DNA of 64,000 bases, taken from an uncultured Nitrosopumilales archaeon. GTDB taxonomy: Archaea > Thermoproteota > Nitrososphaeria > Nitrososphaerales > Gagatemarchaeaceae. Where the stretch lies: positions 1,088-65,087 of the forward strand of contig CAYYYU010000059.1 of NCBI GenBank assembly GCA_964476175.1, given 5' to 3'. Below the pieces are notes generated by a model, which had not been told where the DNA came from, made no database searches, and saw only the letters and a list, made by a program, of their open reading frames with translations. A program made the position numbers and the translations under genes. The number at the start of each line of letters is the position of its first letter. Position 1 is the first letter of the stretch. This document shows, piece by piece, positions 3,479-48,903 of this stretch.

Positions 3479-3488
3479 TAGCGAGGGG
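3479..3488. repeat. 10-bp direct repeat TAGCGAGGGG (copy 1) flanking the LAGLIDADG ORF
   Basis: Identical 10-mer at 3479-3488 and 3986-3995. It equals the reverse complement of the last 9 nt plus discriminator of the adjacent tRNA. Its last G is the first base of the ORF's GTG start. Confidence 0.8.
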
Positions 3489-3988
3489 TGGTTAAAGGGA
3501 ACCCAACAATAGTTCATCAGTTGGCAGAGGGAGAGGCTTGGTTTGCTGGGCTAGTTGACGGAGAAGGCTGTTTCACCCTTTCAATATATCGCCAACATAT
3601 GCACGCATTGAGATTCGATCTGGTTTTTTCTATCTCAATGAAAGAAGGGACTTGGTACCCTGAGGTAGCTCGGGTCCTTAGTCAGCATGAGATTCGCTTC
3701 AATGCTAGGAGACGCAAGAATCAGATAGAGGTCCACGTAGGAGGGCACGCAAGGGTGAAGAAGTTGATTGGGGTCTTGTTACCATATCTCGTAGTAAAGC
3801 AACCGTTGGCAAGGAAGCTTCTCACCTTTCCCATTTCGCCCCCAAGGAATCGATTTACCTCAATCAGCGAATCGTATCTGGCTGAGATCTGTGAGATGGT
3901 AGATTTCGTGCGGGAGTTCAATCGAGGCAAGAATCGGAGACACAAATGGAACAGCAGGACCATCAGAGAGTTCTACGGAATCAAATAG
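3488..3988 (+). CDS. Free-standing single-motif LAGLIDADG homing endonuclease
   Basis: 166 aa with 'WFAGLVDGEGCF'. Size fits an I-CreI-like homodimer. G+C is visibly lower than the neighbours. Its stop TAG lies inside repeat copy 2 and overlaps the tRNA 3' end. Confidence 0.85.
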   Translation: MVKGNPTIVHQLAEGEAWFAGLVDGEGCFTLSIYRQHMHALRFDLVFSISMKEGTWYPEVARVLSQHEIRFNARRRKNQIEVHVGGHARVKKLIGVLLPYLVVKQPLARKLLTFPISPPRNRFTSISESYLAEICEMVDFVREFNRGKNRRHKWNSRTIREFYGIK

Positions 3989-3995
3989 CGAGGGG
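3986..3995. repeat. 10-bp direct repeat TAGCGAGGGG (copy 2), which is the tRNA 3' end
   Basis: See copy 1. Confidence 0.8.
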
Positions 3996-4110
3996 AGGAG
4001 TTTCAGGCGCTGGGTTCTACCCAACACCATTTGAACCTCCGCTCTGCGGGTTATGAGCCCGCCGGGATGATCCTTGCCCCCCATCAGGGGACTGGCTTCC
4101 CCACCTCGCT
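3986..4110 (-). tRNA. Initiator tRNA-Met (CAU) with two putative introns
   Basis: Hand fold. Acceptor AGCGAGG/CCTCGCT with A1:U72 and discriminator A. Anticodon arm GCGGG-CTCATAA-CCCGC (anticodon 4055-4053) with three G:C pairs next to the loop. T arm GGAGG-TTCAAAT...CCTCC. Extra 24 nt after the D arm (about 4063-4086) and 30 nt after the T loop (3999-4028). Confidence 0.7.
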
Positions 4111-4134
4111 TTGATGGGCACCGTATTGTCACAT

Positions 4135-4146
4135 CTTATATCTTTC
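4135..4146 (-). promoter_or_regulatory. TATA-like box for the initiator tRNA
   Basis: Minus strand reads AAGATATAAGA, centred about 29 nt upstream of tRNA position 1. Confidence 0.4.
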
Positions 4147-4198
4147 TGGGGAATCTCAATCTTGTCGGGGGCGGGCGACCGGATTTCGACCGAATCGT

Positions 4199-4315
4199 CT
4201 ACCCTGCCGGGATGGGTTTCGGCATACAGGCGCACCTGTTGTAGGCGCAGCACGAGCACTTTCCACAGCTTTCGTAGTCCTTGTGTCTACAGACCCTGCA
4301 GATGCACGCGGCCAC
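4199..4315 (-). CDS. Possible 38-aa cysteine-rich micro-protein (not in ORF track)
   Basis: GTG start, then VAACICRVCRHKDYESCGKCSCCAYNRCACMPKPIPAG*. Nine Cys in 38 aa. Sits 15 nt downstream of the HD gene stop on the same strand. Confidence 0.25.
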   Translation of the reverse strand: MAACICRVCRHKDYESCGKCSCCAYNRCACMPKPIPAG

Positions 4316-4329
4316 GAAATGGCCGCCCC

Positions 4330-6871: not shown

Positions 6872-6921
6872 GGCTGAACGTTTAATTACGCAACTTCAAG
6901 CCAGACCGCAAAGCAGCTGTA

Positions 6922-15011: not shown

Positions 15012-18000
15012 CTACTCACACTTTGAATATCCGCAGTTGCCACAGCGATAGCACCCGTTCTCGAAGACCAACGCGCTCTCGTGGCAGTCGGGGCAGGTTG
15101 CACCCTGAGAGACGCGGTCTGTCCCCACAGTCTGCATGGGAGCGTCCGGCTCCTTCACCACGTGGTTGAGGGTCAGCAGCTCGAGGGCCTTCGCTATCGC
15201 GTCCGGTATGGACAGCAACTGGGTCCCCTCGTCCCACGAGACGTACTTCCCCTTGATCCCCTTCAGGGTCGAGATGACGCTCTGCGTGTCTCCTCCATGC
15301 TGCAGATATAGGCTGATCAGCCTCCCGAGCGCCTCCGCGTCCGCCTTTTCGTCCCCTCCCGACTTGCCGAGGGTGACGAACACCTCCTTGAGCTCGCCAT
15401 CGACGAGGTTCGCTGTCAGGTAGAGCCCGCCTTGGGGGAGCTTCAGCTTCAAGGTCCTCCCCTCCATCAACCTGGGCCTCTCGAAGTTCAGCTTGGGGGC
15501 GTCGGCCTTCTTCACCATCTTCTCGGTCTCCAAGATCCCCTCCCTGCTCCCCTCCCTGTAGACTGTGATGCCCTTGCAATTGTGCACAGTCACTCCGTTT
15601 ACGACATAGGAGTCAGCTCCTTCGACGGCGAAATTGTAGACTGGCTCAGAACTGAAGAAATCCGACTTCCCCTTTACTCTGTAGCAAAGGAACTCGCCCC
15701 ACGCTTTGCCTGTGTAGCCTATGTCGCCCTCTGTGATCTGATACAGACCTGATTTTCTTTGGCTGAGTCGCATCGTTAGACGCGACAATTGGGCTTGCGC
15801 CATGAAGACCTCCCTCCATAAGCGCTTGGAGAAAGTTACCCCTCCATTGGCTGTCCCGTCGCTGTCGCCAGAAGACCAGGCCTTGATTAGCGTCTCAAGG
15901 AGGTCGGGCGAGATTCTAGTGAACCACTCCGGGAGGTGCTTGTTCTGAGCCCCGCGTCCCACTTGCTGCGAAAGGAACTGACTAAAGACACGGCTCCCCC
16001 ACTGCAACCTCAGCGAAGTTCCACCAGAGCGAATGATTTCCCTTCTTGCTCTGAGCCCGAATTTCTCGAGGACAATCTTTTGCAGCCGGTCTGCGATGTC
16101 TCCTTCTTTGGGACTGAGGGTCATTCGAACGTACGAACGGCCGTCGAAGTGTCCTTCTGCAGTGAACCAACCGAGGAACCATACGAGATTTTCGTCTATC
16201 GGTACCACGTTCTTGATGCCGTTTGAGTGGGCGGCGATTACGGTTTTGCCCTTCTTCCATGGCAGGGTGCGATATGGAAATGCTGTTCCATCGCGGACCA
16301 GGCTGTCGACGTGGTCAGAAACTATGATGCTTTCGACCCTCTCGTTTTCGAATTTGAATCTCGGCTGTAAGACGTGATCGCCGACTTGGATATCCGCCAT
16401 CTTCAGCCAAGTCATTTGGTGCTCTTGATCTGCCCATGCCTTCTTCTGCCAACTTCTTGCTGTCGGGCGTAGAACAAGAACTGGGTGCTCTGCGGTTGCC
16501 ACAAGATCTTCCATGCCTTGGATGTCGAGCCTTACGAACCTCCGGGCCTCTGGAGGCAGTTGGTAGGTTTCAGTTACCCTGTGGTACTGGCCGTCATGGG
16601 AGAGGACTTCATCACCAGCCGAAATTTCCGAGATGTCTCTTAGGCCCGTCTTGGTATAAACATCATTGCCTTTCGTGAAGCATCCCATCCTCCAGGCCAT
16701 GAGGTAGATCTTCTCCACCTCTTCAGGGGTTATCCCTTGCGCCAGGTTGACGGTGCTCGAGATGGCAGTGTCGATGTGTTTCTGGATCGTGGCCTGCATC
16801 TTCACCCTCATCTCGGCCCTTATCTGGTGAGAAGTGACAAAATAGCTGGGGAGTTGCCCTTCGTCGGCCGACCCCGTCAGCTGCATGTATTCCTTGACCA
16901 GAGGGTGGAAGACCTTGAACTCCCCTTCGCTAAGGGACTTGCTCCTCCTCGTGTAGGAAAGGGCGAAGACCGGCTCTACCCCGCTCGAGCATCCGGCCAG
17001 AATCGAGCCCGAGCCCACCGGTGGGATTGTGGTTATCGCTGCGTTCCTGATCCCTTGAGTCCTGATCTTCTCTCTGACCTTTTCGTCGAGCCTCTTTATG
17101 AAGGGCTGCGCCAGGTGTTTTTCGGCGTCGAAGGCGGGGAAGCTCCCCTTCTCCTTCGCGAGGTCGGTCGAGTAGTCGTAGATGATGTTCTTGATCCTCT
17201 CGAACAGGTGGTCGACGTACCCCATGGTCGAATCGTCGTCGTACTTGAGGCCCAGCTTGATCAGCATGTCACCCAGGCCGGTTACTCCCACCCCGATCCT
17301 CCTGCTCCATAGCGACGCCTTCTTCTGCTGCGGCAACGGGTGCCTCTCGGCGTTGTAGTCGAGGACGTTGTCAAGGAACCTGACCGCGAACTGGCACGCC
17401 TGCGTGAGAGAGACCTCGTCTATGCTCGCCCTTTCAGTGAAAGGCTCTTTGACGAACGCGCTCAGGTTCACCGAGCCGAGGCAGCAACACCCGTAACTCT
17501 CCAGAGTCTGCTCGCTGCACGGGTTGACCCCCTCCACCTCCATCCCGTTGTATTCGGTTGTCGATTCCCTCTTCATCGTATCCCAGAAGATGACCCCCGG
17601 CTCCGCCGACTCCCAAGCGCCCCTGACCAGCGACTTCCAGACGTCTCTGGCCCTGACCGTCTTCATTATCTCGGCCTTCTCGTTCTTGAACCGGAGAAGG
17701 AAGTCCCCGTCGGACTCGACCGCCCTCATGAAGTCGTCTGTGATCTTCACGGAGATGTTCGCATAGTTGACCTTCTTCAGGTCCCGCTTGACGTTGATGA
17801 AGTCGCCTATGTCCGGGTGGTCGACCCTCAGGGTTATCATGAGCGCCCCCCTCCTGCCGGCCTGGCCTATCGTCCCCGTCGTGGTGGACAGTAGCTCCAT
17901 GAAAGAGACTGACCCAGAGCTGTAGATCGCCGAGTTGTTGACCGGGGCCCCTTTCGGCCTCAGGACTGAAATGTCTGTCCCTACCCCTCCTCCAAAGCTG

Positions 18001-19604: not shown

Positions 19605-21716
19605 TCAGAGTGCTGTCGAATACTGGAGGGTGGCAACGGATTTGCACTTCTTGCACCGAACAGCCTTCTGAGGGAGCTTCGTACCACAGTTCCTGCAGAC
19701 CGAGATCGTCCTGTCCACCTTGAAGTACGGAAGCTTTGGGGTCGCGTTCAGTATCGTGCTGTAAATCCCTCTCACCTCCTCGGCTGATCCGTCAAGCGTC
19801 AGGGAAAGCCCGCCCATCAGCCCATTCGACAACTTGGTCATGTATTCCACCTTCTCGGGGTTCTCCAGGTCTGCCAGGGTCAGCCTCGGCGACTGGCTGT
19901 AAGCCCCCTTCTGCAACGGCTGAAGGTTGGCCTTCCCATACTTCTCTGAATCGAGGGTCGCGAGCCGGAACGCGCCGTCGAGGTCGAGCATGGCCACAGC
20001 GAGCCTGTCGTTCTTGGACGACTTGTCTAATGCAACCTGAGTCGCGGTCTGGACTATCTTCTCTGCAAGTTCGTACCTGGAACCGATCGTGGGGTCCCTG
20101 ATCAGGCTCGCGAGCGTCTCTTCGAGCCCGACCATGTTCATGATCAGGGGCATAGTGTCGGTGGTGACTGCGTCCGAGCCACCGGCTAGCGAGGGGAGGA
20201 GCCCCCTCTTGAGGGTCCTCTCGATGAGCCTCCTCCGCGTCGAGAGGGCGTCAGCCGCCACCCCTATCAAGAGGGCCAGCTTCGCCCTGAAATAGGTCTC
20301 GTCCTGGTTCGAGTCGTAGGCGAGCCTCGGGAGGTTGAGACTCAGCCCATGAAGCACGCTGATGTTGTCGGCCTGGAGCTCCTGCGGAAGAACGTTGGCG
20401 TTGAGCCCGAGGAAGCTCCTGCGCTGGTCCGAGGAGAAGAACGCTATCCGGCCTCCGTTGAAGATGGTAGCAGCGGCGAGCTTCAAGGTCTGGGTCTCGT
20501 CCACCCTGTTCGGCTTCGCCAGCAGGAGCCTGACGTCGGGCCTCGGGGTCTCCTCCACGAAGGTCCTGTATGCACCGAGAGCAGCGTCGAGCGCCTTGTC
20601 CATGACGTCTCTTGCTACGTCGTCGTGCCGGTACGGGTTGAGCTCTATGCTCACCGAAGGTATCCCGGTCCCGGCAATGGGGGTGCTGACCGTCTCGAAG
20701 AACCTGAGGAAGAGGCCTTCCAGCTCGCGCTTCCCCCTCGACTTGCAGAACGGTCCTACGTACTGGAGGAAGTTCCTGAACGTAATCTCGTCGGAGACCT
20801 CCCTGCAGAGCATGGACGACAGGTTGAGGACTATGTTGAGCGCCCTCTCGGCGCTTTCAGGGCTCGGTATCATCGCCGAGTTGACTATCCTCCCCCTAGG
20901 ATTCAGCCCTGCGTTCCTCATCGAGATCAGGTCGACGAAGACCGTATCCGGGGTCAGTCCCCACGTCCCTGCATTGGTGATGTGAATGTCCCCTGATAGG
21001 TGGGCGTCGGCCACGTCTCTGGGTAGCTGCTCCAGCAGAAGGTACTCTGAGAAGACCTGCTTCCCTGTCTGGTGGACGAGAGTTTCTACGCTCCCGCCGT
21101 CGTCCCCAGCCTTGCCCAGCAGCTGGGTCACGTCGTAAATCGGCATACCGAGCCTGGTCAGTTTGTGCCTGTACTCCTCAAGACTGTGCTCCACCAGTAG
21201 GGCGTTCACCACTTCGCGGATCAGGGGGGCGGTGAGGTACTGCGTCTGGAACTTGTATATCCTGGATTCGGTCTCGCTTGTTATCTTCTGAGCCAGCTCG
21301 ACGGGCATCCCGGCCTCTTTCACGAGGGACTGGAGGATCTTGTTGGCGTTGAACTCCTCCATCGTCTGGTGTGACGTCCTGACGTAGAGTTTGCCGCTCT
21401 CAACCAGCGACTGTTCCTCTATCTGTCGCGTGAGATTCAGGACCAGCCTCCCAAGATTGGTGACCGTGTACTTCCGCTCCTGCCTGTTCAGCTGTATGAG
21501 CAGTTGCTTGACGAGCTTCCTGAGGTGGTACGCGAACTTGCCTGACTCCTTCTTCGACTTGAAGCCGGCGAGCGTCTTGAGAGCGCTGTAGGTCAGAGGA
21601 CCCTTGATGTTCAGTATCCTTAGGATTTCCAGCCTCTGCGGAGATGCGATTACGCTGTAAATCGTCTTGACCCTTCTCGGAGCTGCCTGCAACCCAGGTC
21701 GAGAGGTCGTTGTCAA
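19605..21716 (-). CDS. wHTH + ATP-cone + class III RNR (NrdD)-like protein, probably non-catalytic
   Basis: 703 aa. ArsR-like 'SPQRLEILRIL', an ATP-cone (about aa 108-195), NrdD-like 'AHLSGDIHI' and 'LNLPRLAY', and a C-terminal CxxC..CxxC. I cannot find the glycyl-radical RVxGY motif after the ribbon. Confidence 0.6.
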   Translation of the reverse strand: MTTTSRPGLQAAPRRVKTIYSVIASPQRLEILRILNIKGPLTYSALKTLAGFKSKKESGKFAYHLRKLVKQLLIQLNRQERKYTVTNLGRLVLNLTRQIEEQSLVESGKLYVRTSHQTMEEFNANKILQSLVKEAGMPVELAQKITSETESRIYKFQTQYLTAPLIREVVNALLVEHSLEEYRHKLTRLGMPIYDVTQLLGKAGDDGGSVETLVHQTGKQVFSEYLLLEQLPRDVADAHLSGDIHITNAGTWGLTPDTVFVDLISMRNAGLNPRGRIVNSAMIPSPESAERALNIVLNLSSMLCREVSDEITFRNFLQYVGPFCKSRGKRELEGLFLRFFETVSTPIAGTGIPSVSIELNPYRHDDVARDVMDKALDAALGAYRTFVEETPRPDVRLLLAKPNRVDETQTLKLAAATIFNGGRIAFFSSDQRRSFLGLNANVLPQELQADNISVLHGLSLNLPRLAYDSNQDETYFRAKLALLIGVAADALSTRRRLIERTLKRGLLPSLAGGSDAVTTDTMPLIMNMVGLEETLASLIRDPTIGSRYELAEKIVQTATQVALDKSSKNDRLAVAMLDLDGAFRLATLDSEKYGKANLQPLQKGAYSQSPRLTLADLENPEKVEYMTKLSNGLMGGLSLTLDGSAEEVRGIYSTILNATPKLPYFKVDRTISVCRNCGTKLPQKAVRCKKCKSVATLQYSTAL

Positions 21717-21855: not shown

Positions 21856-21967
21856 TGGGGTCGCCCGGATTTGAACCGGGGATCTTCAGCGGACTCGGCC
21901 CACAGGATCAGTGAATCCAGATGGGCTCCCAAGGCTGAAAGCCTAGACCAGACTAGCCGACGACCCC
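21856..21967 (-). tRNA. tRNA-Pro (UGG) with a 36-nt intron after position 38
   Basis: Hand fold. Acceptor GGGGTCG/CGACCCC. D stem GGCT/GGCT has two central Watson-Crick pairs and G:U wobbles at both ends (10-25 and 13-22). Anticodon arm TCAGC-CTTGGGA-[21891-21926]-GCTGA. T arm CCCGG-TTCAAAT-CCGGG. Lengths sum exactly to 112 nt. A Gln (UUG) register is a less likely alternative. Confidence 0.7.
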
Positions 21968-22092: not shown

Positions 22093-22929
22093 TTGGATGC
22101 CCTCGTTAACTCGGACGAGTCTAACCCGCCCTCATGTGAATGGATAGGAGGTTTTTTCGATGGTGAAGGTTCCATCGCTTTGACTTCGCGGAAGTTTTCA
22201 ATCGACCTAATGGTCAGTTTTACCCAGGCATATCGACCCATACTCGAACGGGTGAATTCGCATCTTCAAAGCGAGGGAATCCAAGGAGGAACTCCCCGGA
22301 CAGAAAGGGGTGGCAGGATAAGTCGGCTGATTTTCGTCTCCAATCTTCAAATCTTGCAGGTTCTGAAGAACCTCCTTCCCTCTCTCAGAATCAAAGCCGA
22401 GCAAGCGCGAGCCACAATCGATTATTTGGAAGACCGGATGACTGGCAACGAATTTCTTGCGATAATGAACTCTGAAATTGGGGTTCAGAAAAGGGGAGGG
22501 GACAGACACGAAGCGTCGTATCCTTGGCTCCGCTCCGAAGGCATTCGCATGACCCGTCTCAATTCAATCAGCTACGCAAGAGCTGTGCACAAGGAAAGAC
22601 GCAGTTCCCCCGATGCGAGAGAACGCGAGAGGTCCAAGGCAATCGAGAGGAACTTTCGAAGAGGTTTCTCAACTCAAAGAAAGGTTCTCACCTTGCTCGT
22701 CAATCGACCATTGACGACGGGTCTGGTAGCTCACGGCATGGGAAGGACCTGGCAACACACTAGGCTACTGTTGAAGGGGTTGTACGAAAGAGGGCTACTG
22801 GTAAGAAACCATTCAAGAATCACCGAGCCGTTCGAGTATAGCCTAACACCGTTGGGACGTAGTTATCTATCGGACAGCGGTGGGAAAGACATCCATGGAT
22901 TACCACCCCCTCACGAGAGCGTTTTATGA
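22093..22929 (+). CDS. Free-standing LAGLIDADG endonuclease fused to a C-terminal winged-helix domain
   Basis: 278 aa. 'WIGGFFDGEGSI', and a C-terminal 'GLVAHGMGRTWQHTRLLLKGLYERGLLV' MarR-like wHTH. Lower G+C. Overlaps the mpg start by 50 nt. Confidence 0.8.
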   Translation: MDALVNSDESNPPSCEWIGGFFDGEGSIALTSRKFSIDLMVSFTQAYRPILERVNSHLQSEGIQGGTPRTERGGRISRLIFVSNLQILQVLKNLLPSLRIKAEQARATIDYLEDRMTGNEFLAIMNSEIGVQKRGGDRHEASYPWLRSEGIRMTRLNSISYARAVHKERRSSPDARERERSKAIERNFRRGFSTQRKVLTLLVNRPLTTGLVAHGMGRTWQHTRLLLKGLYERGLLVRNHSRITEPFEYSLTPLGRSYLSDSGGKDIHGLPPPHESVL

Positions 22930-23482
22930 GAGGAACACAGTTCAGGTCGGACGAGATCTGCTGGGTAATGTCGTGGTTAGGCGCTTGGGTGACTCGCTGG
23001 TTGTTGGACAGATTGTAGAGACAGAGGCTTACGGAGGGCGTGATGATCCCGGAAGTCACGCGTACAGGGGAATTACACAACGAAATCATCTGATGTTTGA
23101 ACGTGCCGGATTCGCATACATCTATCTGGCGTACGGAGTGAACTGGTGTCTCAATGTGACTGCCGAACCTGCGGGAACCCCTGGGGCTGTTCTCATTCGA
23201 GCTTTGCAGCCCCTTTCTGGCGAAGAATTGATGAAGAAACATCGCAACGGAAAGGAAGGGACGACCCTGACGAATGGTCCAGGCAAACTAACACAAGCCC
23301 TGAGAATTACTGGGAAACTCAACGGGATTGACTTGACTTCGAAAGGCGATCTCTACATCGGCGGATTGCCTCAAAAAGGGACAATCTCCACGATAGCAAG
23401 TGAGCGAATCGGCCTTAGCAGAGGCGGTCGACTGCCCTGGAGGTTCTACCTCGGAGGAAACCAATTCGTCTCGAACAAGTAA
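22880..23482 (+). CDS. mpg: DNA-3-methyladenine glycosylase (AAG/MPG family), intact copy
   Basis: 200 aa. 'IVETEAYGGRDDPGSHAYRG', 'GFAYIYLAYGVNWCLNV' and 'AVLIRALQP'. Confidence 0.85.
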   Translation: MGKTSMDYHPLTRAFYERNTVQVGRDLLGNVVVRRLGDSLVVGQIVETEAYGGRDDPGSHAYRGITQRNHLMFERAGFAYIYLAYGVNWCLNVTAEPAGTPGAVLIRALQPLSGEELMKKHRNGKEGTTLTNGPGKLTQALRITGKLNGIDLTSKGDLYIGGLPQKGTISTIASERIGLSRGGRLPWRFYLGGNQFVSNK

Positions 23483-23746
23483 GTATACGTACGCGTACCC
23501 AGCCTCCCCGAACATGACAGCGTTTCGGGGAGTTCTCCCTGTGAACGCGTGACTCGCCGGGTCCCTGTTCCCCCTGTACGCTTCAGTCTCCACAATCCTG
23601 CCTGAGAGCCTTCTGCCGTCCACCACCCTGACCAAGACCTTGCCCAAGAGTCGCCTTGCCACCGAAGGCGAATAATCCTCGAAGAACGAGCGTCCTAGCC
23701 TCGACGCCCTGGGAGCCGTTTTCGAGTTCATCCTATTAGGCCCCAA
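23480..23746 (-). pseudogene. Truncated 5' remnant (89 codons) of a second, divergent mpg gene
   Basis: 'FFEDYSPSVARRLLGKVLV..GRIVETEAYRGNRDPASHAF..MFGEAGYAYVYL' parallels the intact copy at about 50% identity. It then breaks exactly where the plus-strand copy's TAA (23480-23482) sits. Confidence 0.7.
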
Positions 23747-28458: not shown

Positions 28459-28532
28459 GCCTGCGCTGTTCTAGCTTCATCATGCTATTTAATCCTAAGA
28501 CTTTGAACGTGCGACGGAACAAATCGGGCGTG

Positions 28533-28609
28533 TGGGGACGGTCGGATTCGAACCGACGGTATACAGGTTTCTGCAGCTCCAATGCCTAATCATCCACGTT
28601 GCTGTGTCA
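28533..28609 (-). pseudogene. Orphan tRNA-Trp 3' fragment (distal intron plus 3' exon)
   Basis: About 75% identical over about 77 nt to 30057-30136. Contains 'TTGGAGC', A-CCTGT, variable ATACC, T arm GTCGG-TTCGAAT-CCGAC with compensatory changes, and acceptor CGTCCCC-A. No matching 5' exon found in the window. Confidence 0.6.
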
Positions 28610-28750: not shown

Positions 28751-30049
28751 TTGACGTCGGCGAGTGTGGAGAGTTACGAGTCAGAGGCCAAGGTAGTCCC
28801 GTTTCAATCTCACTCCAATGTCGAAGTCGGTAAGCCGCACGCTGCTTGCAACACACCCGACGGGAGATTCACGGTGAAGGTGAGGAGAGACGGTTCACTA
28901 TTCTTGTTTTCTGGTTCGGGCAGGATGAGTTATCTGAAAGCTGAAATTCTTGAGAAGGTAATTCCTCGTTTCAAAGCTTTCGTTCCAGCCGTGCTGAGTG
29001 TTTCCTATGAAGATGCCAACACGGTTCTGTACCATTTCTACAAGGGCGGGAAGGGCTGGCGAGCAACAGTTCCAAACGACATAGCAGTACCGGGTGACGT
29101 CCTTCAACTCTGCGTCCATCTCCTCAGTGAGGGGGAGTTCGTAAGAAACCTGCCCAAGTTATCTCTCATGAATCCTAGCTTCAAGGATTGGCTCTCAAGC
29201 AAAGTGGAATTGGGCAGCGTCTCTATCGTTAGCAACAAGCTTGAATTGAACTTCAACCAAATACCTCCCCTCGAGGGGGTAACGAATTTCTCGATTGTTG
29301 GTTCTGCGCACGAATCACTCGGTTTCAATTCAGGCAGAACAACTCTTGATTTCGAAGTGAACGATCTCTTCGGTCAGACTAGAGTCATCAGAATGAACCA
29401 CGATGGGCACAAGGCGATGTGGTTGGGCGTAAAATATGGCGACAAATTCGAAAGAATTCTCTTTGTCTCCTCAGATGGCATGAGGACGCGGTTTGTCAAG
29501 AATGCAGGTGGGGGAGAAGTTGACGTTTTGACAAAATACCTTCGGGAACCTTCTGATTTCTATCAGTCAAGCGGACTGGAGGAAATCGAGAATCAATTCC
29601 ACGCCGCCGGCGCGTTCCGGGTCTTTCAAGTTAACGAGGTAAGATTGGAAAGACAGTTGGAATCAGAAATGCTACGCCGAGGCTCTAACTACGAACTCGG
29701 AAGACTGGGCGCCGAGATTGCGTACACCATCGCGAGAAAGGATCTTGGCCTAGGCGATATTGTACTAGTCGAACCGTCCAAAGAGGGCCGGGACCTCTTT
29801 ACAAGAGATGGCAAGGTAGTGATTCAAACGAGATTTGTGAGAGACTGGGAACGGCTTTCGCCGAGCAGAATTGACGATACTGTCAGGAGGCAAGTTCTGA
29901 GCGTTCTCTTCAAACTGAGACAGGATTTCGCATACAATCCTCATTCCAACCTAGGCTACGGAGTATTCTCCTATGCCGTAGGTAGTATTGTGAAGTCCAT
30001 TGTTGTGGCTTCGCGACGTGCAAACAGCAAAGAATCGGTCGAGTACTAA
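28751..30049 (+). CDS. Orphan 432-aa protein of unknown function (low G+C, candidate mobility gene)
   Basis: Long ORF with sampled G+C of about 37-45% against about 60% nearby. No family recognised. The C-terminal 'LGLGDIVLVEPSKEG' is only loosely PD-(D/E)XK-like. Confidence 0.6.
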   Translation: MTSASVESYESEAKVVPFQSHSNVEVGKPHAACNTPDGRFTVKVRRDGSLFLFSGSGRMSYLKAEILEKVIPRFKAFVPAVLSVSYEDANTVLYHFYKGGKGWRATVPNDIAVPGDVLQLCVHLLSEGEFVRNLPKLSLMNPSFKDWLSSKVELGSVSIVSNKLELNFNQIPPLEGVTNFSIVGSAHESLGFNSGRTTLDFEVNDLFGQTRVIRMNHDGHKAMWLGVKYGDKFERILFVSSDGMRTRFVKNAGGGEVDVLTKYLREPSDFYQSSGLEEIENQFHAAGAFRVFQVNEVRLERQLESEMLRRGSNYELGRLGAEIAYTIARKDLGLGDIVLVEPSKEGRDLFTRDGKVVIQTRFVRDWERLSPSRIDDTVRRQVLSVLFKLRQDFAYNPHSNLGYGVFSYAVGSIVKSIVVASRRANSKESVEY

Positions 30050-30056
30050 GTCGGAG

Positions 30057-30229
30057 TGGGGACGGCCGGATTTGAACCGGCGGTCTACAGGTTTCTTGGG
30101 CCGCTCCAAAGCTCATTCATCCACGTTTCCGTGTCAGCGGCTGTAATCTTTGTTGCACTGGAGCCTGTCGCCCTGCCTTTCCAGGGTGAAGTTGTACACC
30201 TGCCCCTCACCAAGCTGGGCTACGTCCCC
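30057..30229 (-). tRNA. tRNA-Trp (CCA) with two introns (32 nt at 26/27, 65 nt at 37/38)
   Basis: Hand fold. GGGGACG-TA-GCCC..GGGC-A | [30169-30200] | ACAGG-CTCCAG | [30093-30157] | A-CCTGT-AGACC-GCCGG-TTCAAAT-CCGGC-CGTCCCC-A. The pieces sum exactly to 173 nt. The intron 'TTTGGAGC' is complementary to the anticodon loop. Confidence 0.75.
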
Positions 30230-45180: not shown

Positions 45181-45184
45181 CAAC

Positions 45185-45218: not shown

Positions 45219-45371
45219 GCAGGGGTAGCCTAGAGACACGATCGGGAAGCCTGGTAAGGCGCAGGCTTGCTAAGCCTGTGTCTCGCAAGGGACTCGTGGG
45301 TTCGAATCCCGGGGCCAAAATGAGCCCGGTTAGAACGGGTCGCGCCTCGGGCGAAAGTCCCACCCCCTGCG
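45219..45371 (+). tRNA. tRNA-Ser (GCU) with D-loop and T-arm introns
   Basis: Hand fold. GCAGGGG...CCCCTGC-G. Anticodon arm CAGGC-TTGCTAA-GCCTG (45269-45271). Long variable arm GTCTC-GCAA-GGGAC. T stem GTGGG/CCCAC split by about 51 nt (45308-45358). About 14 extra nt in the D loop (45234-45247). Confidence 0.75.
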
Positions 45372-45396: not shown

Positions 45397-46275
45397 CTAG
45401 GTATTCGGAGCGAACCACCCAATACCCAGGACCCTGTCTAGGCGACGTCTTTTCCTAACAATAGTCAACCCTATCCCTTCACGAAACCTACCGAGGGACC
45501 TTCTCCGAACATGGATGGAATGGCAATCGACCCTACGTTGATAGGACTTCCCCCTTCTGGTTATAATGCTGCCCTTTCTTGTCCCTAGATACGGTCCTGT
45601 AGTCTCAATGCCAAAATATCTGCTCAAGAGATAACGGACGTATCGCAAGAGTTCCAAGTTAGAGTTACTCGCGGTCAAGGTTCCGTCCGTCGCCACACAG
45701 CCTTCTGAGTCGAAGAATCCCCTGGCGAACGCGGACACACACCGCTTGTTGTGTTCAATGAAAGGCACAAATGTCTGAAAGGGAGACCACAGGAATTGAT
45801 ACAGGCGGTAGCTCCCAAATTCGACGTGGATTTCTGCAGACGTTTTCCCCTTCCACAAGCGATGCGCTGGGATTCCCAATGATTTAGCCACAGATTGGTT
45901 GAACGCTTCCACGAATTCTCTATCGACTGCCTGCAGACGTGTCCTATACTGGTACGTCTTCTGTTTGAGGTTCAACGAGGCATCTCCCATCTTCACGCCG
46001 ATTACATATGCCAACTCGGGGGTAGAACGAGGGACGAAAGCGTGCCCGATTCTTGTTGGTGAAGCACTCCCATTGACCCAGTTCGACAATGTTGATTTCA
46101 CAAGCGAAATATGATACCTTTCGGTCACTTCCGCCCTAATCTCCCTGTAACTCCGGGAGTCTCTCCGGAGCTTAATCACTTCTTCGAAGAGTTTGAGTCT
46201 CGTAGCAAGGGGCAAATACCTGCCACGATGGATCACAACTTCGGTAGTACTTGATTCATGACCGATGTCTACCAT
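45397..46275 (-). CDS. Free-standing double-motif LAGLIDADG endonuclease with N-terminal HTH
   Basis: 292 aa. 'LAYVIGVKMGDASL' and 'FARGFFDSEGCV'. Lower G+C. Convergent with tRNA-Ser, 25 nt away. Confidence 0.8.
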   Translation of the reverse strand: MVDIGHESSTTEVVIHRGRYLPLATRLKLFEEVIKLRRDSRSYREIRAEVTERYHISLVKSTLSNWVNGSASPTRIGHAFVPRSTPELAYVIGVKMGDASLNLKQKTYQYRTRLQAVDREFVEAFNQSVAKSLGIPAHRLWKGKTSAEIHVEFGSYRLYQFLWSPFQTFVPFIEHNKRCVSAFARGFFDSEGCVATDGTLTASNSNLELLRYVRYLLSRYFGIETTGPYLGTRKGSIITRRGKSYQRRVDCHSIHVRRRSLGRFREGIGLTIVRKRRRLDRVLGIGWFAPNT

Positions 46276-46327
46276 ACATCAGGAACTCCTTTGGTTTCAC
46301 CAGGATAAACTCACACCTTAGTATTTA

Positions 46328-46392
46328 GGCCCCCATGAGTAGAATTCCTTAGGGGGCGTCATCTCGTTTGAGGGTCCACACACCTGAGCTAC
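46328..46392 (+). other. Degenerate copy of the tRNA-Ser T-arm intron plus 3' end
   Basis: By-eye alignment: GGCC-CCCATGAG..TTAG..CTCG..GTCCACACACCTGAGCT versus tRNA GGCC-AAAATGAG..TTAG..CTCG..GTCCCACCCCCTGCGCT. Roughly 60-65% identity. Confidence 0.35.
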
Positions 46393-47672
46393 TTGCCCGA
46401 GCTTCTCCCCGCGTAGAGCGCCTTGGAGCCGATCGCCTGCTCGATTCTAATCAATTCGTTGTACTTGGCGACCCTTTCTCCCCTGGCAGGAGCCCCGGTC
46501 TTTATGAAATCCGCACCGAAAGCTGTGGCAAGATGGGCGATGAAGGGGTCCTCGGTCTCTCCTGACCTGTGCGACACGACGACCCCCCACCCTGCCCCAT
46601 TTGCGGCCAGAATCGCCTTTTCAGTCTCCGAGACGGTCCCTACCTGATTGAGCTTGATCAGGACTGCGTTCGATGCCTTCTCATGGATGCCTCGCCTTAT
46701 CCTGGCGACATCCGTGACATAGATGTCATCTCCTATGATTTTCGTCTCCTTCCCTAGCCTCTTCGTAATCGACACGAACGAGTCGAAGGCATCTTCCCCG
46801 AACGGGTCCTCGATTGTCAGCAGTCCGAATTCGTCCCTGAGGTTGGCGTAGAAGTCCTCGAGGGCCTCTGCGGACAGTCTGTGACCGTCGAGCTTGTAGA
46901 CTCCCTCTCCGGGTTCGTGGAAGACCGTGGCCGCTGCGTCGATTCCCATCCTGACCTCCCTCTCACCATATCCGCTCAGTTTGATCGCTTCAGCGATTGC
47001 GGAGAGGGCGTCCCTGGTCAAGCTCAGAGGGGGGGCGAATCCTCCTTCGTCCCCCACGTTGATTGAGCTCCTTCCGTACTTTTTCAGAAGTATTTCCTTC
47101 AGAGTCTGGTACACTTCGGCTCCGACCCTAATCCCTTCTGTACACGTCTTCGCACCTACGGGTTCGATGTGAAATTCCTGTACCGCCAGCTCATTCCCGG
47201 CGTGCTCCCCGCCGTTGATTACATTCATCATGGGAACTGGGAGACGATACGACTTCGACTTCCTCAACTGAGTGAAAAGGCCGACGCCTTTGGAATCCGC
47301 CGCCGCCCTGGCCGCTGCCATGGATACGGCGAGGATCGCGTTGGCTCCTAGTCTGCCTTTGTTGGGAGTCCCGTCAAGCTTGATCATGACCTCGTCCAGT
47401 CGGTTCTGGTCTGCGCAGTCCAGACCTTTCAGCTTCGGTCCGATGACTGAGTCGACGTTTGCGACCGCCTTGGTAACCCCTTTCCCGTGGAACCTCCTCT
47501 CGTCTCCGTCCCTCAACTCGAGGGCTTCGTGCGAACCAGTCGAGGCTCCTGACGGGACGCTCGCTATTCCCACGGCCGAGCCGGCAACGACTTCGGCTTC
47601 CACCGTAGGGTTCCCGCGCGAATCAAGGACCTCCCTCGCCCTAACCGCTGTTATCATACGACTTCTTGTCAC
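46389..47672 (-). CDS. eno: Enolase
   Basis: 427 aa. 'SRGNPTVE', 'SHRSGETED' and 'IKTGAPARGERVAKYN'. Confidence 0.95.
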   Translation of the reverse strand: MTRSRMITAVRAREVLDSRGNPTVEAEVVAGSAVGIASVPSGASTGSHEALELRDGDERRFHGKGVTKAVANVDSVIGPKLKGLDCADQNRLDEVMIKLDGTPNKGRLGANAILAVSMAAARAAADSKGVGLFTQLRKSKSYRLPVPMMNVINGGEHAGNELAVQEFHIEPVGAKTCTEGIRVGAEVYQTLKEILLKKYGRSSINVGDEGGFAPPLSLTRDALSAIAEAIKLSGYGEREVRMGIDAAATVFHEPGEGVYKLDGHRLSAEALEDFYANLRDEFGLLTIEDPFGEDAFDSFVSITKRLGKETKIIGDDIYVTDVARIRRGIHEKASNAVLIKLNQVGTVSETEKAILAANGAGWGVVVSHRSGETEDPFIAHLATAFGADFIKTGAPARGERVAKYNELIRIEQAIGSKALYAGRSSGK

Positions 47673-47768
47673 ACTGGAGGCTCCCCCTGAGGCTTCTACC
47701 CGGGGAAATTAAAGTGGCTTGCGCACTCCGCTCCAAGACTTATTAGAAGATTGAACCGCGCGGCCATT

Positions 47769-47875
47769 GGGCCGGTCGTCTAGCTTGGTTAGGACGTCAG
47801 GAAACCCCGTCAAGCCCTTACACGGCGAAACGCGCATGCGCGCAATGGCCAGGGGTCCGATTCCCCTCCGGCCCA
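47769..47875 (+). tRNA. tRNA-Val (UAC) with two putative introns
   Basis: Hand fold. GGGCCGG/CCGGCCC-A. D arm GTCT..GGAC. TC|[47799-47813]|GCC-CTTACAC-GGCGA gives stem TCGCC/GGCGA (anticodon 47819-47821). About 17 extra nt containing the palindrome GCGCATGCGC in the variable region. T arm AGGGG-TCCGATT-CCCCT, with an unusual C at position 55. Confidence 0.6.
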
Positions 47876-47974
47876 TCTACAATCCGATTCTCACAATACT
47901 TTCAGCTATCCGTCCTCGCGCAGACCAGATTTTGCTAAATTGATTATAGTCGATTCATTATTGCCAGACGTGCC

Positions 47975-48856
47975 ATGCGAAAATCATGGAGTCAGCCCAT
48001 TCTTCTCGACGGTGCTGATCCACAGTGGCCTGTGGGCCGTCTGCGTGCGTTGAGTTATCTTGTCGGGGTGCTCCTGAAAGGAGACGCTTCAACTTACACG
48101 ACTACAGCGAAGGCGCTTTGTTCAGGTCGCTGGAAGAAGTATGTTGGCTACAGACTCGAACTTAAGTGCAATTCAAGGGCCTTCATGCAGGCATTCAATT
48201 CTGCCAGCTCAAGTGTGTTAGATCGGGAGGAGGTCAGGATACATGGCCCTTATGATGATGGGCATTTCATTCTACAGTACTATGCCAAAGACTTCGTGAG
48301 TTGGTGGCGGATTCAGACTCTGGGAGACCTAAAAGAACTCATCAACGCATTTCCGATTGACTACCTAAGAGGAAGATTTGACAGTGACGGTAACGTGAAT
48401 AGATACGAGGTCGTTCTCTGCGGGGCAGAGAGTCATCGTGAATTGATGGAATTCGAAAGGTCGGTATGCATCAGGTTGGGAATGAGAACGGGCAAACTGA
48501 GATACTACGGCAAACCTGGCCAGAGATCAACCATCGGAAAGAGGGAGATTGTAACAACTCAGCGGAAATTGCGTTTCTCGGTAAACTCATCAGATTTCCT
48601 TCATACCATCCGTTGGCTCAACGTCGAACTGAGAAACCAAAGACTTCGGACCAACATCAGAAGAAGAGCTTGGACTGCGAGGAATGCAGACGCCAGAAGA
48701 CGCGCGATCGAACTCAGAACGAAATTCGGTTGGGGGTACAGTCGAATAGCTGAAGTTCTTAGTGAAGAGACTCAAAGTCACCTTTCTCCCTCGACGATAT
48801 TCGGATGGACTTCTGGGAAGCACGTCAGCTGGTGTGAGTACGACGCAAGGCGTTGA
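47975..48856 (+). CDS. Free-standing double-motif LAGLIDADG endonuclease with C-terminal HTH
   Basis: 293 aa. 'LSYLVGVLLKGDAS' and 'YLRGRFDSDGNV'. Lower G+C. 100 nt downstream of tRNA-Val. Confidence 0.8.
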   Translation: MRKSWSQPILLDGADPQWPVGRLRALSYLVGVLLKGDASTYTTTAKALCSGRWKKYVGYRLELKCNSRAFMQAFNSASSSVLDREEVRIHGPYDDGHFILQYYAKDFVSWWRIQTLGDLKELINAFPIDYLRGRFDSDGNVNRYEVVLCGAESHRELMEFERSVCIRLGMRTGKLRYYGKPGQRSTIGKREIVTTQRKLRFSVNSSDFLHTIRWLNVELRNQRLRTNIRRRAWTARNADARRRAIELRTKFGWGYSRIAEVLSEETQSHLSPSTIFGWTSGKHVSWCEYDARR

Positions 48857-48878
48857 ATCTCTACCCATCTCGCTATGA

Positions 48879-48903
48879 TGTATCGAATCCCCTCGCCCCT
48901 ACT
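48879..48903 (+). other. Degenerate tRNA-Val T-arm/acceptor-like remnant
   Basis: TGTATCGAATCCCCTCGCCCCTAC versus tRNA GGTCCGATTCCCCTCCGGCCCATCTAC. In addition, CCCATCT occurs at both 47872-47878 and 48864-48870. Confidence 0.3.

What the first reader, a model, noticed from the sequence alone, without database searches (positions are those of the whole stretch)
3479..48903. Every tRNA gene in the window has a private selfish ORF: a tRNA-3'-end-targeting homing system?
All five tRNA genes (initiator Met, Pro, Trp, Ser, Val) are flanked within 0-125 nt by a low-GC ORF. Four of these are structurally different LAGLIDADG proteins (single-motif, motif + wHTH, HTH + double-motif, double-motif + HTH) and one is an orphan. 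Four loci retain a duplicated or decayed tRNA 3' segment distal to the ORF.

This suggests repeated, independent homing of free-standing endonuclease genes into or next to tRNA genes, with co-conversion or replacement of the target's 3' portion. It is analogous to free-standing Seg/Mob endonucleases in T-even phages (segB sits in the T4 tRNA cluster). To my knowledge this has not been described as a systematic feature of an archaeal chromosome. The non-canonical tRNA introns may be linked, either as cleavage-site disruptors giving immunity or as recombination scars.
Basis: inference. Interest (0 to 1): 0.65.

Follow-up and report, generated by a model that had tools for sequence, protein, structure and literature searches.

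The report
Homing-endonuclease genes parked at tRNA genes
In this soil archaeon (Nitrososphaerales) each of the five tRNA genes in the window has a small foreign gene next to it, four of them encoding DNA-cutting "homing" enzymes, and one of these enzyme families is found beside tRNA genes in dozens of related archaea, which points to selfish genes that use tRNA genes as landing sites.

Summary
The window holds five tRNA genes with multiple introns: iMet, Pro, Trp, Ser and Val. Standard tRNA finders miss all of them. Each lies 0-125 nt from a low-GC3 ORF (P about 2e-5 to 4e-4 by permutation). Four ORFs are LAGLIDADG endonucleases of different architectures. The fifth belongs to an uncharacterised family, not an orphan (182 cluster representatives).

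Five syntenic relatives lack the Ser- and Val-linked ORFs, so these are about 1-kb insertions at the tRNA 3' ends. The Ser-linked family is large. In 53 of 72 metagenomic loci a convergent tRNA lies just past the ORF stop codon, sub-lineages track tRNA type, and the gene on the other flank varies.

Copies of the tRNA 3' end beyond the ORF are solid at Trp (81 nt) and Val (19/20 to another allele), positional at iMet (12/13), and unsupported at Ser.

Two corrections. The Pro-side ORF is part of a [LAGLIDADG + mpg] cassette that replaced most of the host mpg gene, so its target is probably mpg. A link to tRNA introns is not supported.

Best reading: free-standing homing endonuclease genes using tRNA genes as homing sites, like phage T4 SegB. 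Cleavage is untested.

The parts
3986..4110 (-). tRNA-iMet(CAT), exons 4110-4087, 4063-4029, 3998-3986 (two non-canonical introns)
   Evidence: The spliced construct is called tRNA-Met(cat) by default ARAGORN. It has an A1:U72 pair and a GGG/CCC anticodon stem, read directly from the sequence.
3488..3988 (+). L1 ORF, 166 aa. Single-motif (homodimer-type) LAGLIDADG endonuclease, convergent with tRNA-iMet. The stop codon TAG is the complement of tRNA nt 71-73.
   Evidence: Full-length phmmer matches to I-MsoI, I-CvuI and I-CreI, E 3e-8 to 4e-3. Pfam LAGLIDADG_1 at 22.4 bits. PHROG homing-endonuclease families. GC 0.475, GC3 0.53.
3479..3491 (-). Relic copy of the tRNA-iMet 3' end (T-stem 3' strand + acceptor 3' strand + discriminator), 12/13 identical to 3986-3998. 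Its TAG opens the L1 reading frame, and its single mismatch creates the GTG start codon.
   Evidence: Weak similarity continues into the intron (…GGG..CCCAACA).
21856..21967 (-). tRNA-Pro(TGG) with one 36-nt intron
   Evidence: Rfam tRNA 46.8 bits. ARAGORN with introns allowed.
22093..22929 (+). L2 ORF, 278 aa. I-MsoI-like LAGLIDADG domain plus a C-terminal wHTH-like region. Divergent from tRNA-Pro, 125 nt from its 5' end. Overlaps the next gene by 50 nt.
   Evidence: Pfam LAGLIDADG_3, E 7e-6. I-MsoI, E 8e-12. GC3 0.53.
22880..23482 (+). Complete foreign-looking methylpurine-DNA glycosylase gene (mpg), GC3 0.53, forming a cassette with L2
   Evidence: Pfam Pur_DNA_glyco, E 2e-63, profile positions 2-180 of 181. 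GC3.
23473..23746 (-). Truncated 5' fragment (about 89 codons) of the host's own mpg gene, GC3 0.70, only 49% identical to the complete copy. It ends where the foreign copy ends.
   Evidence: Pfam Pur_DNA_glyco, profile positions 2-70 of 181. BLASTP and GC3.
28532..28609 (-). Relic copy of the 3' half of tRNA-Trp (3' half of the 37/38 intron plus the 3' exon), about 85% identical to 30056-30136. Its T-arm GTCGG/TTCGAAT/CCGAC equals that of the outgroup allele in L162.
   Evidence: Alignment score 92 against a shuffle maximum of 28. Three-way alignment A5.
28751..30049 (+). L3 ORF, 432 aa, a member of an uncharacterised protein family. Convergent with tRNA-Trp, 7 nt from its 3' end.
   Evidence: No Pfam, PHROG, NCBIfam or PDB match. 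182 cluster representatives found by HMMER. GC3 0.545.
30057..30229 (-). tRNA-Trp(CCA), exons 30229-30201, 30168-30158, 30092-30057. Its T-arm GCCGG/TTCAAAT/CCGGC is derived relative to both the relic and L162.
45219..45371 (+). tRNA-Ser(GCT), exons 45219-45230, 45248-45310, 45362-45371
   Evidence: Orthologous tRNA-Ser genes in L002-L006 and L109.
45397..46275 (-). L4 ORF, 292 aa. N-terminal three-helix (HTH-like) domain plus an I-DmoI-like double-LAGLIDADG endonuclease. Convergent with tRNA-Ser, 25 nt from its 3' end. Absent from five syntenic relatives.
   Evidence: Pfam LAGLIDADG_3, E 1e-11. AF2 pLDDT 87.9. Foldseek PI-PfuI 2e-8 and I-DmoI 6e-8. The acidic residues D98 and D189/E191 are invariant in alignment A1. 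Insertion polymorphism.
47769..47875 (+). tRNA-Val(TAC), exons 47769-47798, 47814-47829, 47848-47875, with an unusual T-loop TCCGATT
47975..48856 (+). L5 ORF, 293 aa. Double-motif LAGLIDADG plus a C-terminal HTH-like region. Same strand as tRNA-Val, 99 nt downstream of it. Absent from syntenic relatives.
   Evidence: hhalign to the L4-family profile, probability 90.6%, both motifs aligned. BLASTP to L4, E 1.6e-4. No tblastn hit in L002-L006 or L109. GC3 0.52.
48883..48902 (+). Relic of a tRNA-Val 3' end (T-loop to discriminator) of the other allele type (acceptor CGCCCCC). It lies about 30 nt before the conserved PRT promoter motif, where relatives have their tRNA 3' end.
   Evidence: 19/20 identical to L006's tRNA-Val 3' end; score 36 against a shuffle maximum of 26-27, 0 of 300 shuffles. 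Positional context.

Best explanation
The window comes from a soil or peat Nitrososphaerales (thaumarchaeal) genome. Small single-gene foreign cassettes have repeatedly inserted at its tRNA genes.

Three of them (L1 at tRNA-iMet, L4 at tRNA-Ser, L5 at tRNA-Val) are free-standing LAGLIDADG homing endonuclease genes. They most likely use the conserved tRNA gene itself, in its T-arm/acceptor 3' region, as their recognition and homing site. The proposed mechanism is as follows. The enzyme cuts an unoccupied tRNA allele. Repair from an occupied allele copies the endonuclease gene in just beyond the tRNA 3' end, together with the donor's version of the tRNA 3' part. When the far flank is not homologous, the recipient's original 3' end is left behind as a relic beyond the ORF.

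The cassette at tRNA-Trp (L3) has the same architecture and the clearest relic, but it carries a protein of unknown function. It may be a new nuclease or merely cargo.

The fifth (L2) is a LAGLIDADG gene coupled to its own mpg copy. It landed in, and replaced most of, the host mpg gene. Its target is more likely mpg than tRNA-Pro.

Shown: the insertions, their foreign composition, the endonuclease folds with conserved catalytic residues, the family-wide tRNA linkage, and the relics.
Inferred: that the enzymes cut tRNA genes, and the repair route.
For: 1. Insertion polymorphism. Five relatives (enolase 69-73% identical) keep the order PRT, tRNA-Val, enolase, tRNA-Ser, SRP RNA, TtuA. They have 8-35 nt where the window has about 1 kb carrying L4 or L5.

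2. Family-wide linkage. The L4 family has at least 178 proteins and at least 416 metagenome relatives. In 53 of 72 loci a T-loop motif lies on the opposite strand within 260 nt of the stop codon, against 1 of 72 on the same strand and about 2.6 expected by chance. ARAGORN calls a convergent tRNA in 47 of 72 loci, and the median gap from stop codon to tRNA 3' end is 35 nt.

3. Specificity. HEG clusters track tRNA type: Ser for the closest homologs, then Cys, Asp and Arg.

4. The other flank varies (enolase, hisI, peptidase M29) while the tRNA-Ser/SRP side is constant.

5. Patchy, incongruent distribution. L109 is a close host (SRP RNA 86%) with a HEG 46-48% identical. L089 is a more distant host (SRP RNA 78%, TtuA 66%) with a HEG 57% identical. 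L002-L006 have none.

6. Intact enzymes. The catalytic acidic residues are invariant in A1. L4 has an I-DmoI/PI-PfuI fold. L1 and L2 are I-MsoI/I-CreI-like.

7. Relics. Trp has 81 nt. Val has 19/20 to another allele. iMet has 12/13, bracketing the ORF exactly. The same arrangement occurs in L161 and L157 (Arg), and L166 has a scar. The 16-mer test gives 2 hits against 0 in three controls, with about 0.03 expected.

8. The working tRNA-Trp 3' exon has four derived changes concentrated in the T-arm, including a compensatory pair, whereas the relic equals the outgroup allele.

9. Precedent. [quoted passage not shown]

10. There are no integrase or viral genes in or beside the cassettes, and neither family is found in viral contigs in any meaningful way.
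Against: - No cleavage site is known, and nothing here shows that any of these proteins cuts a tRNA gene.
- Classical homing does not duplicate the target, so the relics need an extra assumption: one-sided homology, or a cassette that carries a tRNA 3' arm.
- Most L4-family loci show no relic.
- Mature tRNA-Ser sequences of HEG-plus and HEG-minus alleles are nearly identical. Self-immunity would therefore have to come from disruption of a site that spans the tRNA end.
- L3 has no recognisable nuclease domain. Its only second context is syntenic.
- An unrelated membrane-protein gene occupies the same tRNA-Val spacer in L004. tRNA 3' flanks therefore also accept non-endonuclease DNA.
Confidence: 0.6

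Rival explanations
1. tRNA 3' ends are generic hot spots for foreign DNA, and the endonuclease genes are passengers rather than drivers. Insertion would occur through integrase-mediated site-specific recombination (classic tRNA att sites, here with the integrase lost or acting in trans), or through homology-facilitated illegitimate recombination anchored on the conserved tRNA.
For: - Direct repeats of the tRNA 3' part flanking an insert are the hallmark of integrase-type integration (established knowledge). They are seen at Trp, iMet and Val, and in L161 and L166.
- A non-endonuclease gene sits in the same tRNA-Val spacer in L004.
- L3 has no nuclease signature.
- A P-loop gene is inserted on the 5' side of tRNA-Trp relative to L162.
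Against: - The cassettes are 0.5-1.5 kb with a single ORF and no integrase.
- The repeats have no long identical core: they are about 85% identical over 81 nt.
- One endonuclease family keeps the same orientation and a gap of 35 nt or less to the tRNA in dozens of genomes, and its sub-lineages track tRNA type. Random cargo would not show this.
- Neither family occurs in viral contigs.
Confidence: 0.2
2. The LAGLIDADG proteins are domesticated host factors linked functionally to their neighbouring tRNA. They could be DNA-binding regulators like WhiA, or maturase-like helpers for intron-rich pre-tRNAs. They would not be mobile elements.
For: - L2, L4 and L5 carry extra HTH-type domains.
- WhiA appears among the structural matches of L4.
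- The Ser-linked gene is present at the same site in several lineages.
- All five tRNAs have unusual introns.
Against: - The catalytic acidic residues are invariant, unlike in WhiA.
- The genes are absent from the five closest syntenic relatives, which have the same intron-rich tRNAs.
- Their GC3 is strongly foreign.
- The HEG tree is incongruent with host relatedness.
- Intron pattern does not correlate with presence of the gene.
Confidence: 0.08
3. For L2 only: the ORF targets tRNA-Pro like the others, and the mpg rearrangement is unrelated.
For: The ORF is 125 nt from tRNA-Pro. Some L4-family members also lie on the 5' side of a second tRNA, for example L135 and L137.
Against: - It lies on the 5' side and no tRNA-Pro relic is present.
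- It overlaps, and shares low GC3 with, a complete mpg copy that abuts a truncated host mpg only 49% identical. This is the pattern expected if the cassette landed in mpg.
Confidence: 0.25

Closest known systems
Free-standing homing endonucleases of T-even phages, especially SegB (GIY-YIG) in the T4 tRNA gene cluster
   Same: Both are stand-alone endonuclease genes lying between genes, not inside an intron or intein. Both sit next to tRNA genes. Presence or absence varies between relatives, and flanking markers are co-converted. [quoted passage not shown]
   Different: The enzyme family differs (LAGLIDADG, not GIY-YIG). The host is a cellular archaeal chromosome, not a phage. There are many sub-lineages, each tied to one tRNA isoacceptor. 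The orientation is fixed, convergent, with the stop codon within tens of nt of the tRNA 3' end. Relic tRNA 3' ends are sometimes present. Cleavage was not tested here.
Archaeal intron- and intein-encoded LAGLIDADG endonucleases (I-DmoI, I-Tsp061I, PI-PfuI)
   Same: L4 has the same fold and catalytic motifs as these enzymes. They are also archaeal, and they also target conserved genes for stable RNAs or housekeeping proteins.
   Different: Those enzymes are encoded inside BHB introns of rRNA genes or inside inteins, and are removed by splicing. The genes here are free-standing, lie outside the mature tRNA, and are mostly antisense to it. No group I intron or other intron model fits these segments (PMC6125680 reports archaeal group I introns only in rRNA genes).
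Integrase-mediated integration of archaeal viruses and plasmids into tRNA genes (my own knowledge of SSV-type and pTN3-type integrases)
   Same: The target is the 3' part of a tRNA gene. The element supplies a replacement 3' part, and the original is displaced to the far end as a direct repeat.
   Different: No integrase or other element genes are present. The inserts are 0.5-1.5 kb. The repeats are diverged, without an identical core.
I-CreI / I-MsoI / I-CvuI homodimeric LAGLIDADG enzymes
   Same: L1 and the L2 N-terminal domain align to them over the full length, with the catalytic motif intact.
   Different: Those enzymes are encoded in group I introns of chloroplast 23S rRNA genes. L1 is free-standing at a tRNA-iMet 3' end. 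L2 is fused to a wHTH-like domain and paired with mpg.

Membership tests
LAGLIDADG homing endonuclease (protein family) | LAGLIDADG fold: alpha-beta-beta-alpha-beta-beta-alpha core(s) with the motif helices at the domain or dimer interface | tested here: met
   The L4 model has pLDDT 87.9 and matches I-DmoI and PI-PfuI with probability 1.00 and target TM 0.66-0.72. L1 and L2 align over the full length to I-MsoI, I-CvuI and I-CreI. L5 matches the L4 profile over both motifs with probability 90.6%. Not met for L3: no hit.
LAGLIDADG homing endonuclease (protein family) | Conserved acidic catalytic residue at the end of each LAGLIDADG motif | tested here: met
   - L1: FAGLVDGEG.
- L2: IGGFFDGEG.
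- L4: GVKMGDAS and GFFDSEG, with D98, D189 and E191 invariant in 27 sequences.
- L5: LLKGDAS and GRFDSDG.
LAGLIDADG homing endonuclease (protein family) | Site-specific double-strand cleavage of a long (14-40 bp) DNA target | not testable with these tools
   Needs purified protein and substrates carrying unoccupied tRNA alleles.
Free-standing (intronless) homing element | The gene is not embedded in an intron or intein | tested here: met
   The ORFs lie outside the mature tRNA exons. No group I/II intron model is hit even at E<=10. No Hint or intein domains are found in L1-L5.
Free-standing (intronless) homing element | Presence/absence polymorphism at the same locus among relatives, with a distribution incongruent with host phylogeny | tested here: met
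   - L4 and L5 are absent in L002-L006.
- An L4-family gene is present at the same site in L109 and in more distant hosts.
- HEG identity runs opposite to host identity.
- Not tested for L1-L3.
Free-standing (intronless) homing element | The endonuclease cuts the unoccupied allele near its own insertion site, and its gene is copied in by repair | not testable with these tools
   Inferred only from position, conservation of the tRNA as the sole shared sequence, and the SegB precedent.
Integrase-type integrative element at a tRNA gene | Encodes, or is accompanied by, a tyrosine or serine recombinase | tested here: not met
   No integrase domain is found in or beside any cassette.
Integrase-type integrative element at a tRNA gene | Direct repeats (attL/attR) sharing an identical core derived from the tRNA 3' part | tested here: inconclusive
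   Repeats exist at Trp, iMet and Val, but they are diverged. The longest identical runs are about 10-17 nt.
Archaeal BHB intron carrying an endonuclease gene | The ORF lies within a segment excised from the precursor RNA at a bulge-helix-bulge motif, in the sense orientation | tested here: not met
   A complete tRNA can be assembled without the ORF segment at all five loci. The ORFs are antisense to the tRNA at iMet, Trp and Ser.

The most novel reading that the evidence does not exclude
Nitrososphaerota harbour a distinct class of tRNA-gene-resident homing cassettes. Each is a single nuclease gene that travels together with a replacement tRNA 3' segment. The tRNA itself then supplies portable homology on both sides, which lets the cassette move between species whatever the neighbouring genes are. 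The class would include a new, non-LAGLIDADG nuclease family (the L3 family, 182 clusters). The resulting arms race would explain the aberrant T-arms seen in these tRNAs: compensatory T-stem changes in tRNA-Trp, and T-loops such as TCCAAGT and TCCGATT in tRNA-Val.
Probability: 0.25. Interest if true: 0.8.

Novelty: new variant of a known kind. Interest (0 to 1): 0.62.

Why it matters
Homing endonucleases are known mainly from introns, inteins and phage genomes. A large, diversified family of free-standing LAGLIDADG genes tied to tRNA 3' ends in cellular archaeal chromosomes would be a new ecological niche for these elements.

It would also:
- provide a natural source of meganucleases with ready-made, highly conserved targets;
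- give a possible driver of tRNA gene evolution in an environmentally important phylum, through replacement of 3' halves and unusual T-arms;
- explain why gene content next to tRNA genes is variable in these genomes.

There is a practical point as well. Standard tRNA finders miss these tRNA genes entirely because of their multiple introns, so routine annotation does not show the association.

I found no description of this arrangement in the searchable literature. That library is incomplete.

Tried and rejected
- ARAGORN with default settings and Rfam at gathering score found no tRNAs. A brute-force single-deletion search was too permissive to be informative and was replaced by explicit spliced constructs.
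- Exact-protein look-ups for enolase, TtuA and P0122 found nothing. Arginase gave only a 1.7-kb Logan contig.
- Group I intron idea: no Rfam hit even at E<=10.
- PD-(D/E)xK nuclease idea for the L3 C-terminal domain. The AF2 model is only moderately confident (pLDDT 60). Foldseek, a PDB profile search and Pfam all gave nothing. It remains an unsupported guess.
- The relic search across the L4 family was mostly negative, with z<3. The Ser relic in the window and a possible relic in L109 were not significant.
- Viral origin: scans of viral contigs with L2, L5 and the L3 and L4 family alignments gave nothing meaningful.
The contexts of the L1, L2, L5 and wider L3 families therefore remain unexamined.
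- L162 as independent support for an L3-tRNA-Trp link was rejected, because L162 is syntenic with the window.

Full report
**What the window is.** The window carries an archaeal SRP RNA and a 5S rRNA. Its enolase is 69-73% identical to those of soil and peat Nitrososphaerales MAGs. So this is a non-marine thaumarchaeon with about 58% GC, not a member of the Thermoproteales.

**Checking the observation.** ARAGORN with default settings finds no tRNA. Rfam at gathering score finds none. In E-value mode Rfam finds tRNA-Pro (46.8 bits) and a fragment of tRNA-Trp. Reading the sequence showed five tRNA genes, each interrupted by one or two introns, several at non-canonical positions. After I removed the proposed introns, default ARAGORN calls all five:
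- iMet(CAT), minus strand, 4110-3986;
- Pro(TGG), minus strand, 21967-21856;
- Trp(CCA), minus strand, 30229-30057;
- Ser(GCT), plus strand, 45219-45371;
- Val(TAC), plus strand, 47769-47875.

A map of regions not covered by host-like ORFs leaves only these loci, the 5S and SRP genes and a few short promoter regions. Five is therefore very probably the full count.

Each tRNA has a neighbouring ORF:
- L1 (3488-3988, +) overlaps the iMet 3' end with its stop codon.
- L3 (28751-30049, +) ends 7 nt from the Trp 3' end.
- L4 (45397-46275, -) ends 25 nt from the Ser 3' end.
- L5 (47975-48856, +) starts 99 nt after the Val 3' end.
- L2 (22093-22929, +) starts 125 nt from the 5' end of Pro.

The four ORFs of 250 aa or more are the four lowest-GC ORFs of that size in the window. 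Their GC3 is 0.51-0.56, against about 0.69-0.84 for typical host genes. A permutation test gives P about 2e-5 to 4e-4 for five of five tRNAs having such a neighbour.

**What the ORFs encode.**
- L1 aligns over its full length to the homodimeric enzymes I-MsoI, I-CvuI and I-CreI.
- The L2 N-terminal domain does the same and is followed by a wHTH-like region.
- L4 hits LAGLIDADG_3. Its AlphaFold model (pLDDT 87.9) matches PI-PfuI and I-DmoI with probability 1.00 and has an extra N-terminal three-helix domain.
- L5 has no Pfam hit but matches the L4-family profile across both motifs.
- All four keep the catalytic acidic residues.
- The five ORFs are not recent paralogs of each other.
- L3 has no match in Pfam, PHROGs, NCBIfam or the PDB. 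Its model is only moderately confident and has no structural neighbour. It is not an orphan, however: exhaustive HMMER finds 182 cluster representatives, 89 of them at E<=1e-30. My guess that its C-terminal domain is a PD-(D/E)xK nuclease has no tool support.

**The ORFs are insertions.** Five relatives (L002-L006) keep the gene order PRT, tRNA-Val, enolase, tRNA-Ser, SRP RNA, TtuA, and none has a homolog of any of the five ORFs. The spacer between the tRNA-Ser 3' end and the enolase stop codon is 8-30 nt in the relatives and 1014 nt in the window. The spacer between tRNA-Val and the conserved PRT promoter motif is about 35 nt in the relatives and about 1 kb in the window.

**The L4 family is tied to tRNA 3' ends.**
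- The family has at least 178 proteins in Nitrososphaerota. Sources annotate them as DNA endonuclease or LAGLIDADG homing endonuclease. At least 416 relatives occur in JGI metagenomes.
- In 72 loci with downstream sequence, a T-loop motif lies on the opposite strand within 260 nt of the stop codon in 53, against 1 on the same strand and about 2.6 expected by chance.
The median gap from stop codon to tRNA 3' end is 35 nt.
- The closest homologs sit at tRNA-Ser(GCT), as in the window. More distant clusters sit at Ser(TGA), Cys, Asp and Arg. Some anticodon calls are unreliable because of the introns.
- The gene on the far side of the ORF differs between hosts (enolase, hisI, peptidase M29), while the tRNA-Ser/SRP RNA side is constant.
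- The distribution is patchy and incongruent. L109 is syntenic with the window (SRP RNA 86% identical) and has a HEG only 46-48% identical. L089 comes from a more distant host (SRP RNA 78%, TtuA 66%) and has a HEG 57% identical. The five closest relatives have none.
- Neither the L4 nor the L3 family is found in viral contigs in any meaningful way.

**Relics of the tRNA 3' end.**
- At Trp, the last 81 nt of the gene (the 3' half of the canonical-position intron plus the 3' exon) are repeated 1524 nt away at about 85% identity. The alignment score is 92 against a shuffle maximum of 28.
- A three-way alignment with the syntenic outgroup L162 adds detail. In the exon the relic equals the outgroup. 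The working copy has four derived changes, three of them in the T-arm including a compensatory pair. In the intron part it is the relic that has decayed.
- At Val, a 20-nt fragment (48883-48902) lies about 30 nt before the PRT promoter motif, where relatives have their tRNA 3' end. It is 19/20 identical to the 3' end of the other tRNA-Val allele type seen in L006, with 0 of 300 shuffles reaching that score.
- At iMet, a 13-nt repeat (12/13) brackets the ORF exactly. Its TAG opens the reading frame, its one mismatch creates the GTG start codon, and the proximal copy supplies the stop codon. In a free alignment it is borderline (16 of 300 shuffles).
- At Ser the proposed relic is not significant (57 of 300 shuffles). 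At Pro there is none.
- Elsewhere relics are rare. Most L4-family loci show none. A strict 16-mer test on 65 tRNAs in the relatives' loci found two downstream same-strand copies, none in three controls, and about 0.03 expected. One brackets an Arg-linked HEG in L161, with a homologous relic in L157. The other is a 160-nt scar after tRNA-Val in L166.

**L2 is different.** Immediately after L2, and overlapping it by 50 nt, lies a complete mpg gene with GC3 0.53. Abutting its end on the other strand is the first ~89 codons of a second mpg, with host-like GC3 of 0.70 and only 49% identical. The simplest reading is that a [LAGLIDADG + mpg] cassette landed in the host mpg gene and replaced its 3' two-thirds. 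The closeness to tRNA-Pro, on the tRNA's 5' side, may be incidental.

**Introns.** HEG-plus and HEG-minus tRNA-Ser alleles carry D-loop, anticodon-stem and T-arm introns in no consistent pattern. HEG-free relatives also have intron-rich tRNA-Val genes. The suggested link between introns and the ORFs is not supported.

**Mechanism.** The only sequence shared by all hosts of a given HEG sub-lineage near the insertion point is the tRNA gene itself. LAGLIDADG enzymes need long conserved targets. [quoted passage not shown] I therefore infer that these enzymes cut unoccupied tRNA alleles in or near the T-arm/acceptor 3' region. Repair from an occupied allele would then copy in the gene together with the donor's tRNA 3' part. 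A relic of the recipient's own 3' end would remain when the distal join is not homologous. This step is inferred, not shown.

**Rivals.** Three rival readings are less well supported:
- generic integration or recombination at tRNA genes, with the endonuclease genes as passengers;
- domesticated tRNA-related factors;
- for L2 alone, a tRNA-Pro target.

The first cannot be dismissed. L004 has an unrelated membrane-protein gene in the same tRNA-Val spacer, and L3 has no nuclease signature.

**Limits.**
- The second L3 context (L162) is syntenic with the window, so it is not independent. Its ORF copy is frameshifted.
- Among 14 bystander tRNAs in the relatives' loci, none has a further LAGLIDADG gene at its 3' end. 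The five-of-five occupancy may therefore be peculiar to this genome or region.

**Novelty.** Literature searches found no description of tRNA-linked free-standing LAGLIDADG genes in this phylum. Archaeal group I introns with such genes are reported only in rRNA genes (PMC6125680). I rate this a new variant of a known kind: free-standing homing endonucleases, here in a cellular archaeal chromosome and specialised on tRNA 3' ends.

Noticed in passing
window 15012-19472 (-): The class II ribonucleotide reductase gene (1486 aa) carries two inteins (Intein_splicing and Hint hits). One has a LAGLIDADG_3 endonuclease domain at aa 1098-1151, which matches the low-GC dip at 18-19 kb. This genome is rich in homing elements of several kinds.
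   Followed up: partly
window 3479-3998: The L1 ORF is bracketed exactly by the 13-nt repeat TAGCGAGGGG(T/A)GG. The distal TAG closes the upstream frame. The single T/A mismatch creates the GTG start codon. The proximal TAG, which is the complement of tRNA-iMet nt 71-73, is the stop codon.
   Followed up: yes
L004 8623-9480: In the relative L004 an unrelated 191-aa ORF with an N-terminal membrane anchor is inserted in the same tRNA-Val/PRT spacer that holds L5 in the window. This spacer therefore also accepts non-endonuclease genes.
   Followed up: partly
L166 ~1867-1890 and 2051-2126: On a 2.25-Mb Nitrososphaerota contig, a perfect 15-nt copy of the tRNA-Val 3' end lies 160 nt downstream of the gene. 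It looks like the scar of a lost insertion.
   Followed up: partly
L161 ~3601-3616 and L157 ~1071-1087: Two Arg-linked L4-family genes from different contigs both have a decayed copy of the tRNA-Arg 3' end and T-arm beyond the ORF. The two relic regions are homologous to each other, so the relic stays with the gene in that sub-lineage.
   Followed up: partly
window 47848-47875; L002, L003, L004, L005 tRNA-Val; L003 tRNA-Ser: The T-loops depart from the near-universal TTCRAAT. Variants seen are TCCGATT (window), TCCAAGT (L002, L004) and TCCGAAT (L005 tRNA-Val and L003 tRNA-Ser). T-stems of tRNA-Val differ in nearly every relative. This could reflect selection on the DNA as an endonuclease target, or an unusual tRNA biology.
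   Followed up: no
window 30284-31609 (-): A 441-aa P-loop protein gene (weak CobW/HypB-like hits, host-like GC3 0.74) lies between tRNA-Trp and Trm112. It is absent from the otherwise syntenic locus L162.
   Followed up: partly
window 27336-28058 (-): A 240-aa low-GC3 ORF with a weak PEF-CTERM sorting signal (a putative archaeal surface protein) lies about 470 nt beyond the tRNA-Trp relic. It is another compositionally foreign gene near a tRNA locus.
   Followed up: no
L162 1-989: The L3-family homolog next to tRNA-Trp in L162 is split by a frameshift near nt 60-70, so it may be decaying. A sequencing error cannot be excluded.
   Followed up: partly
window 19605-21716 (-): The anaerobic ribonucleotide reductase-like gene (NRDD) has an N-terminal HTH/DUF7347 domain plus an ATP-cone. 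It lies next to the class II RNR and tRNA-Pro.
   Followed up: no
whole window: All five tRNA genes escape ARAGORN with default settings and Rfam at gathering score because of multiple non-canonical introns. Routine annotation of such genomes will under-call tRNAs and hide the tRNA-ORF association.
   Followed up: yes
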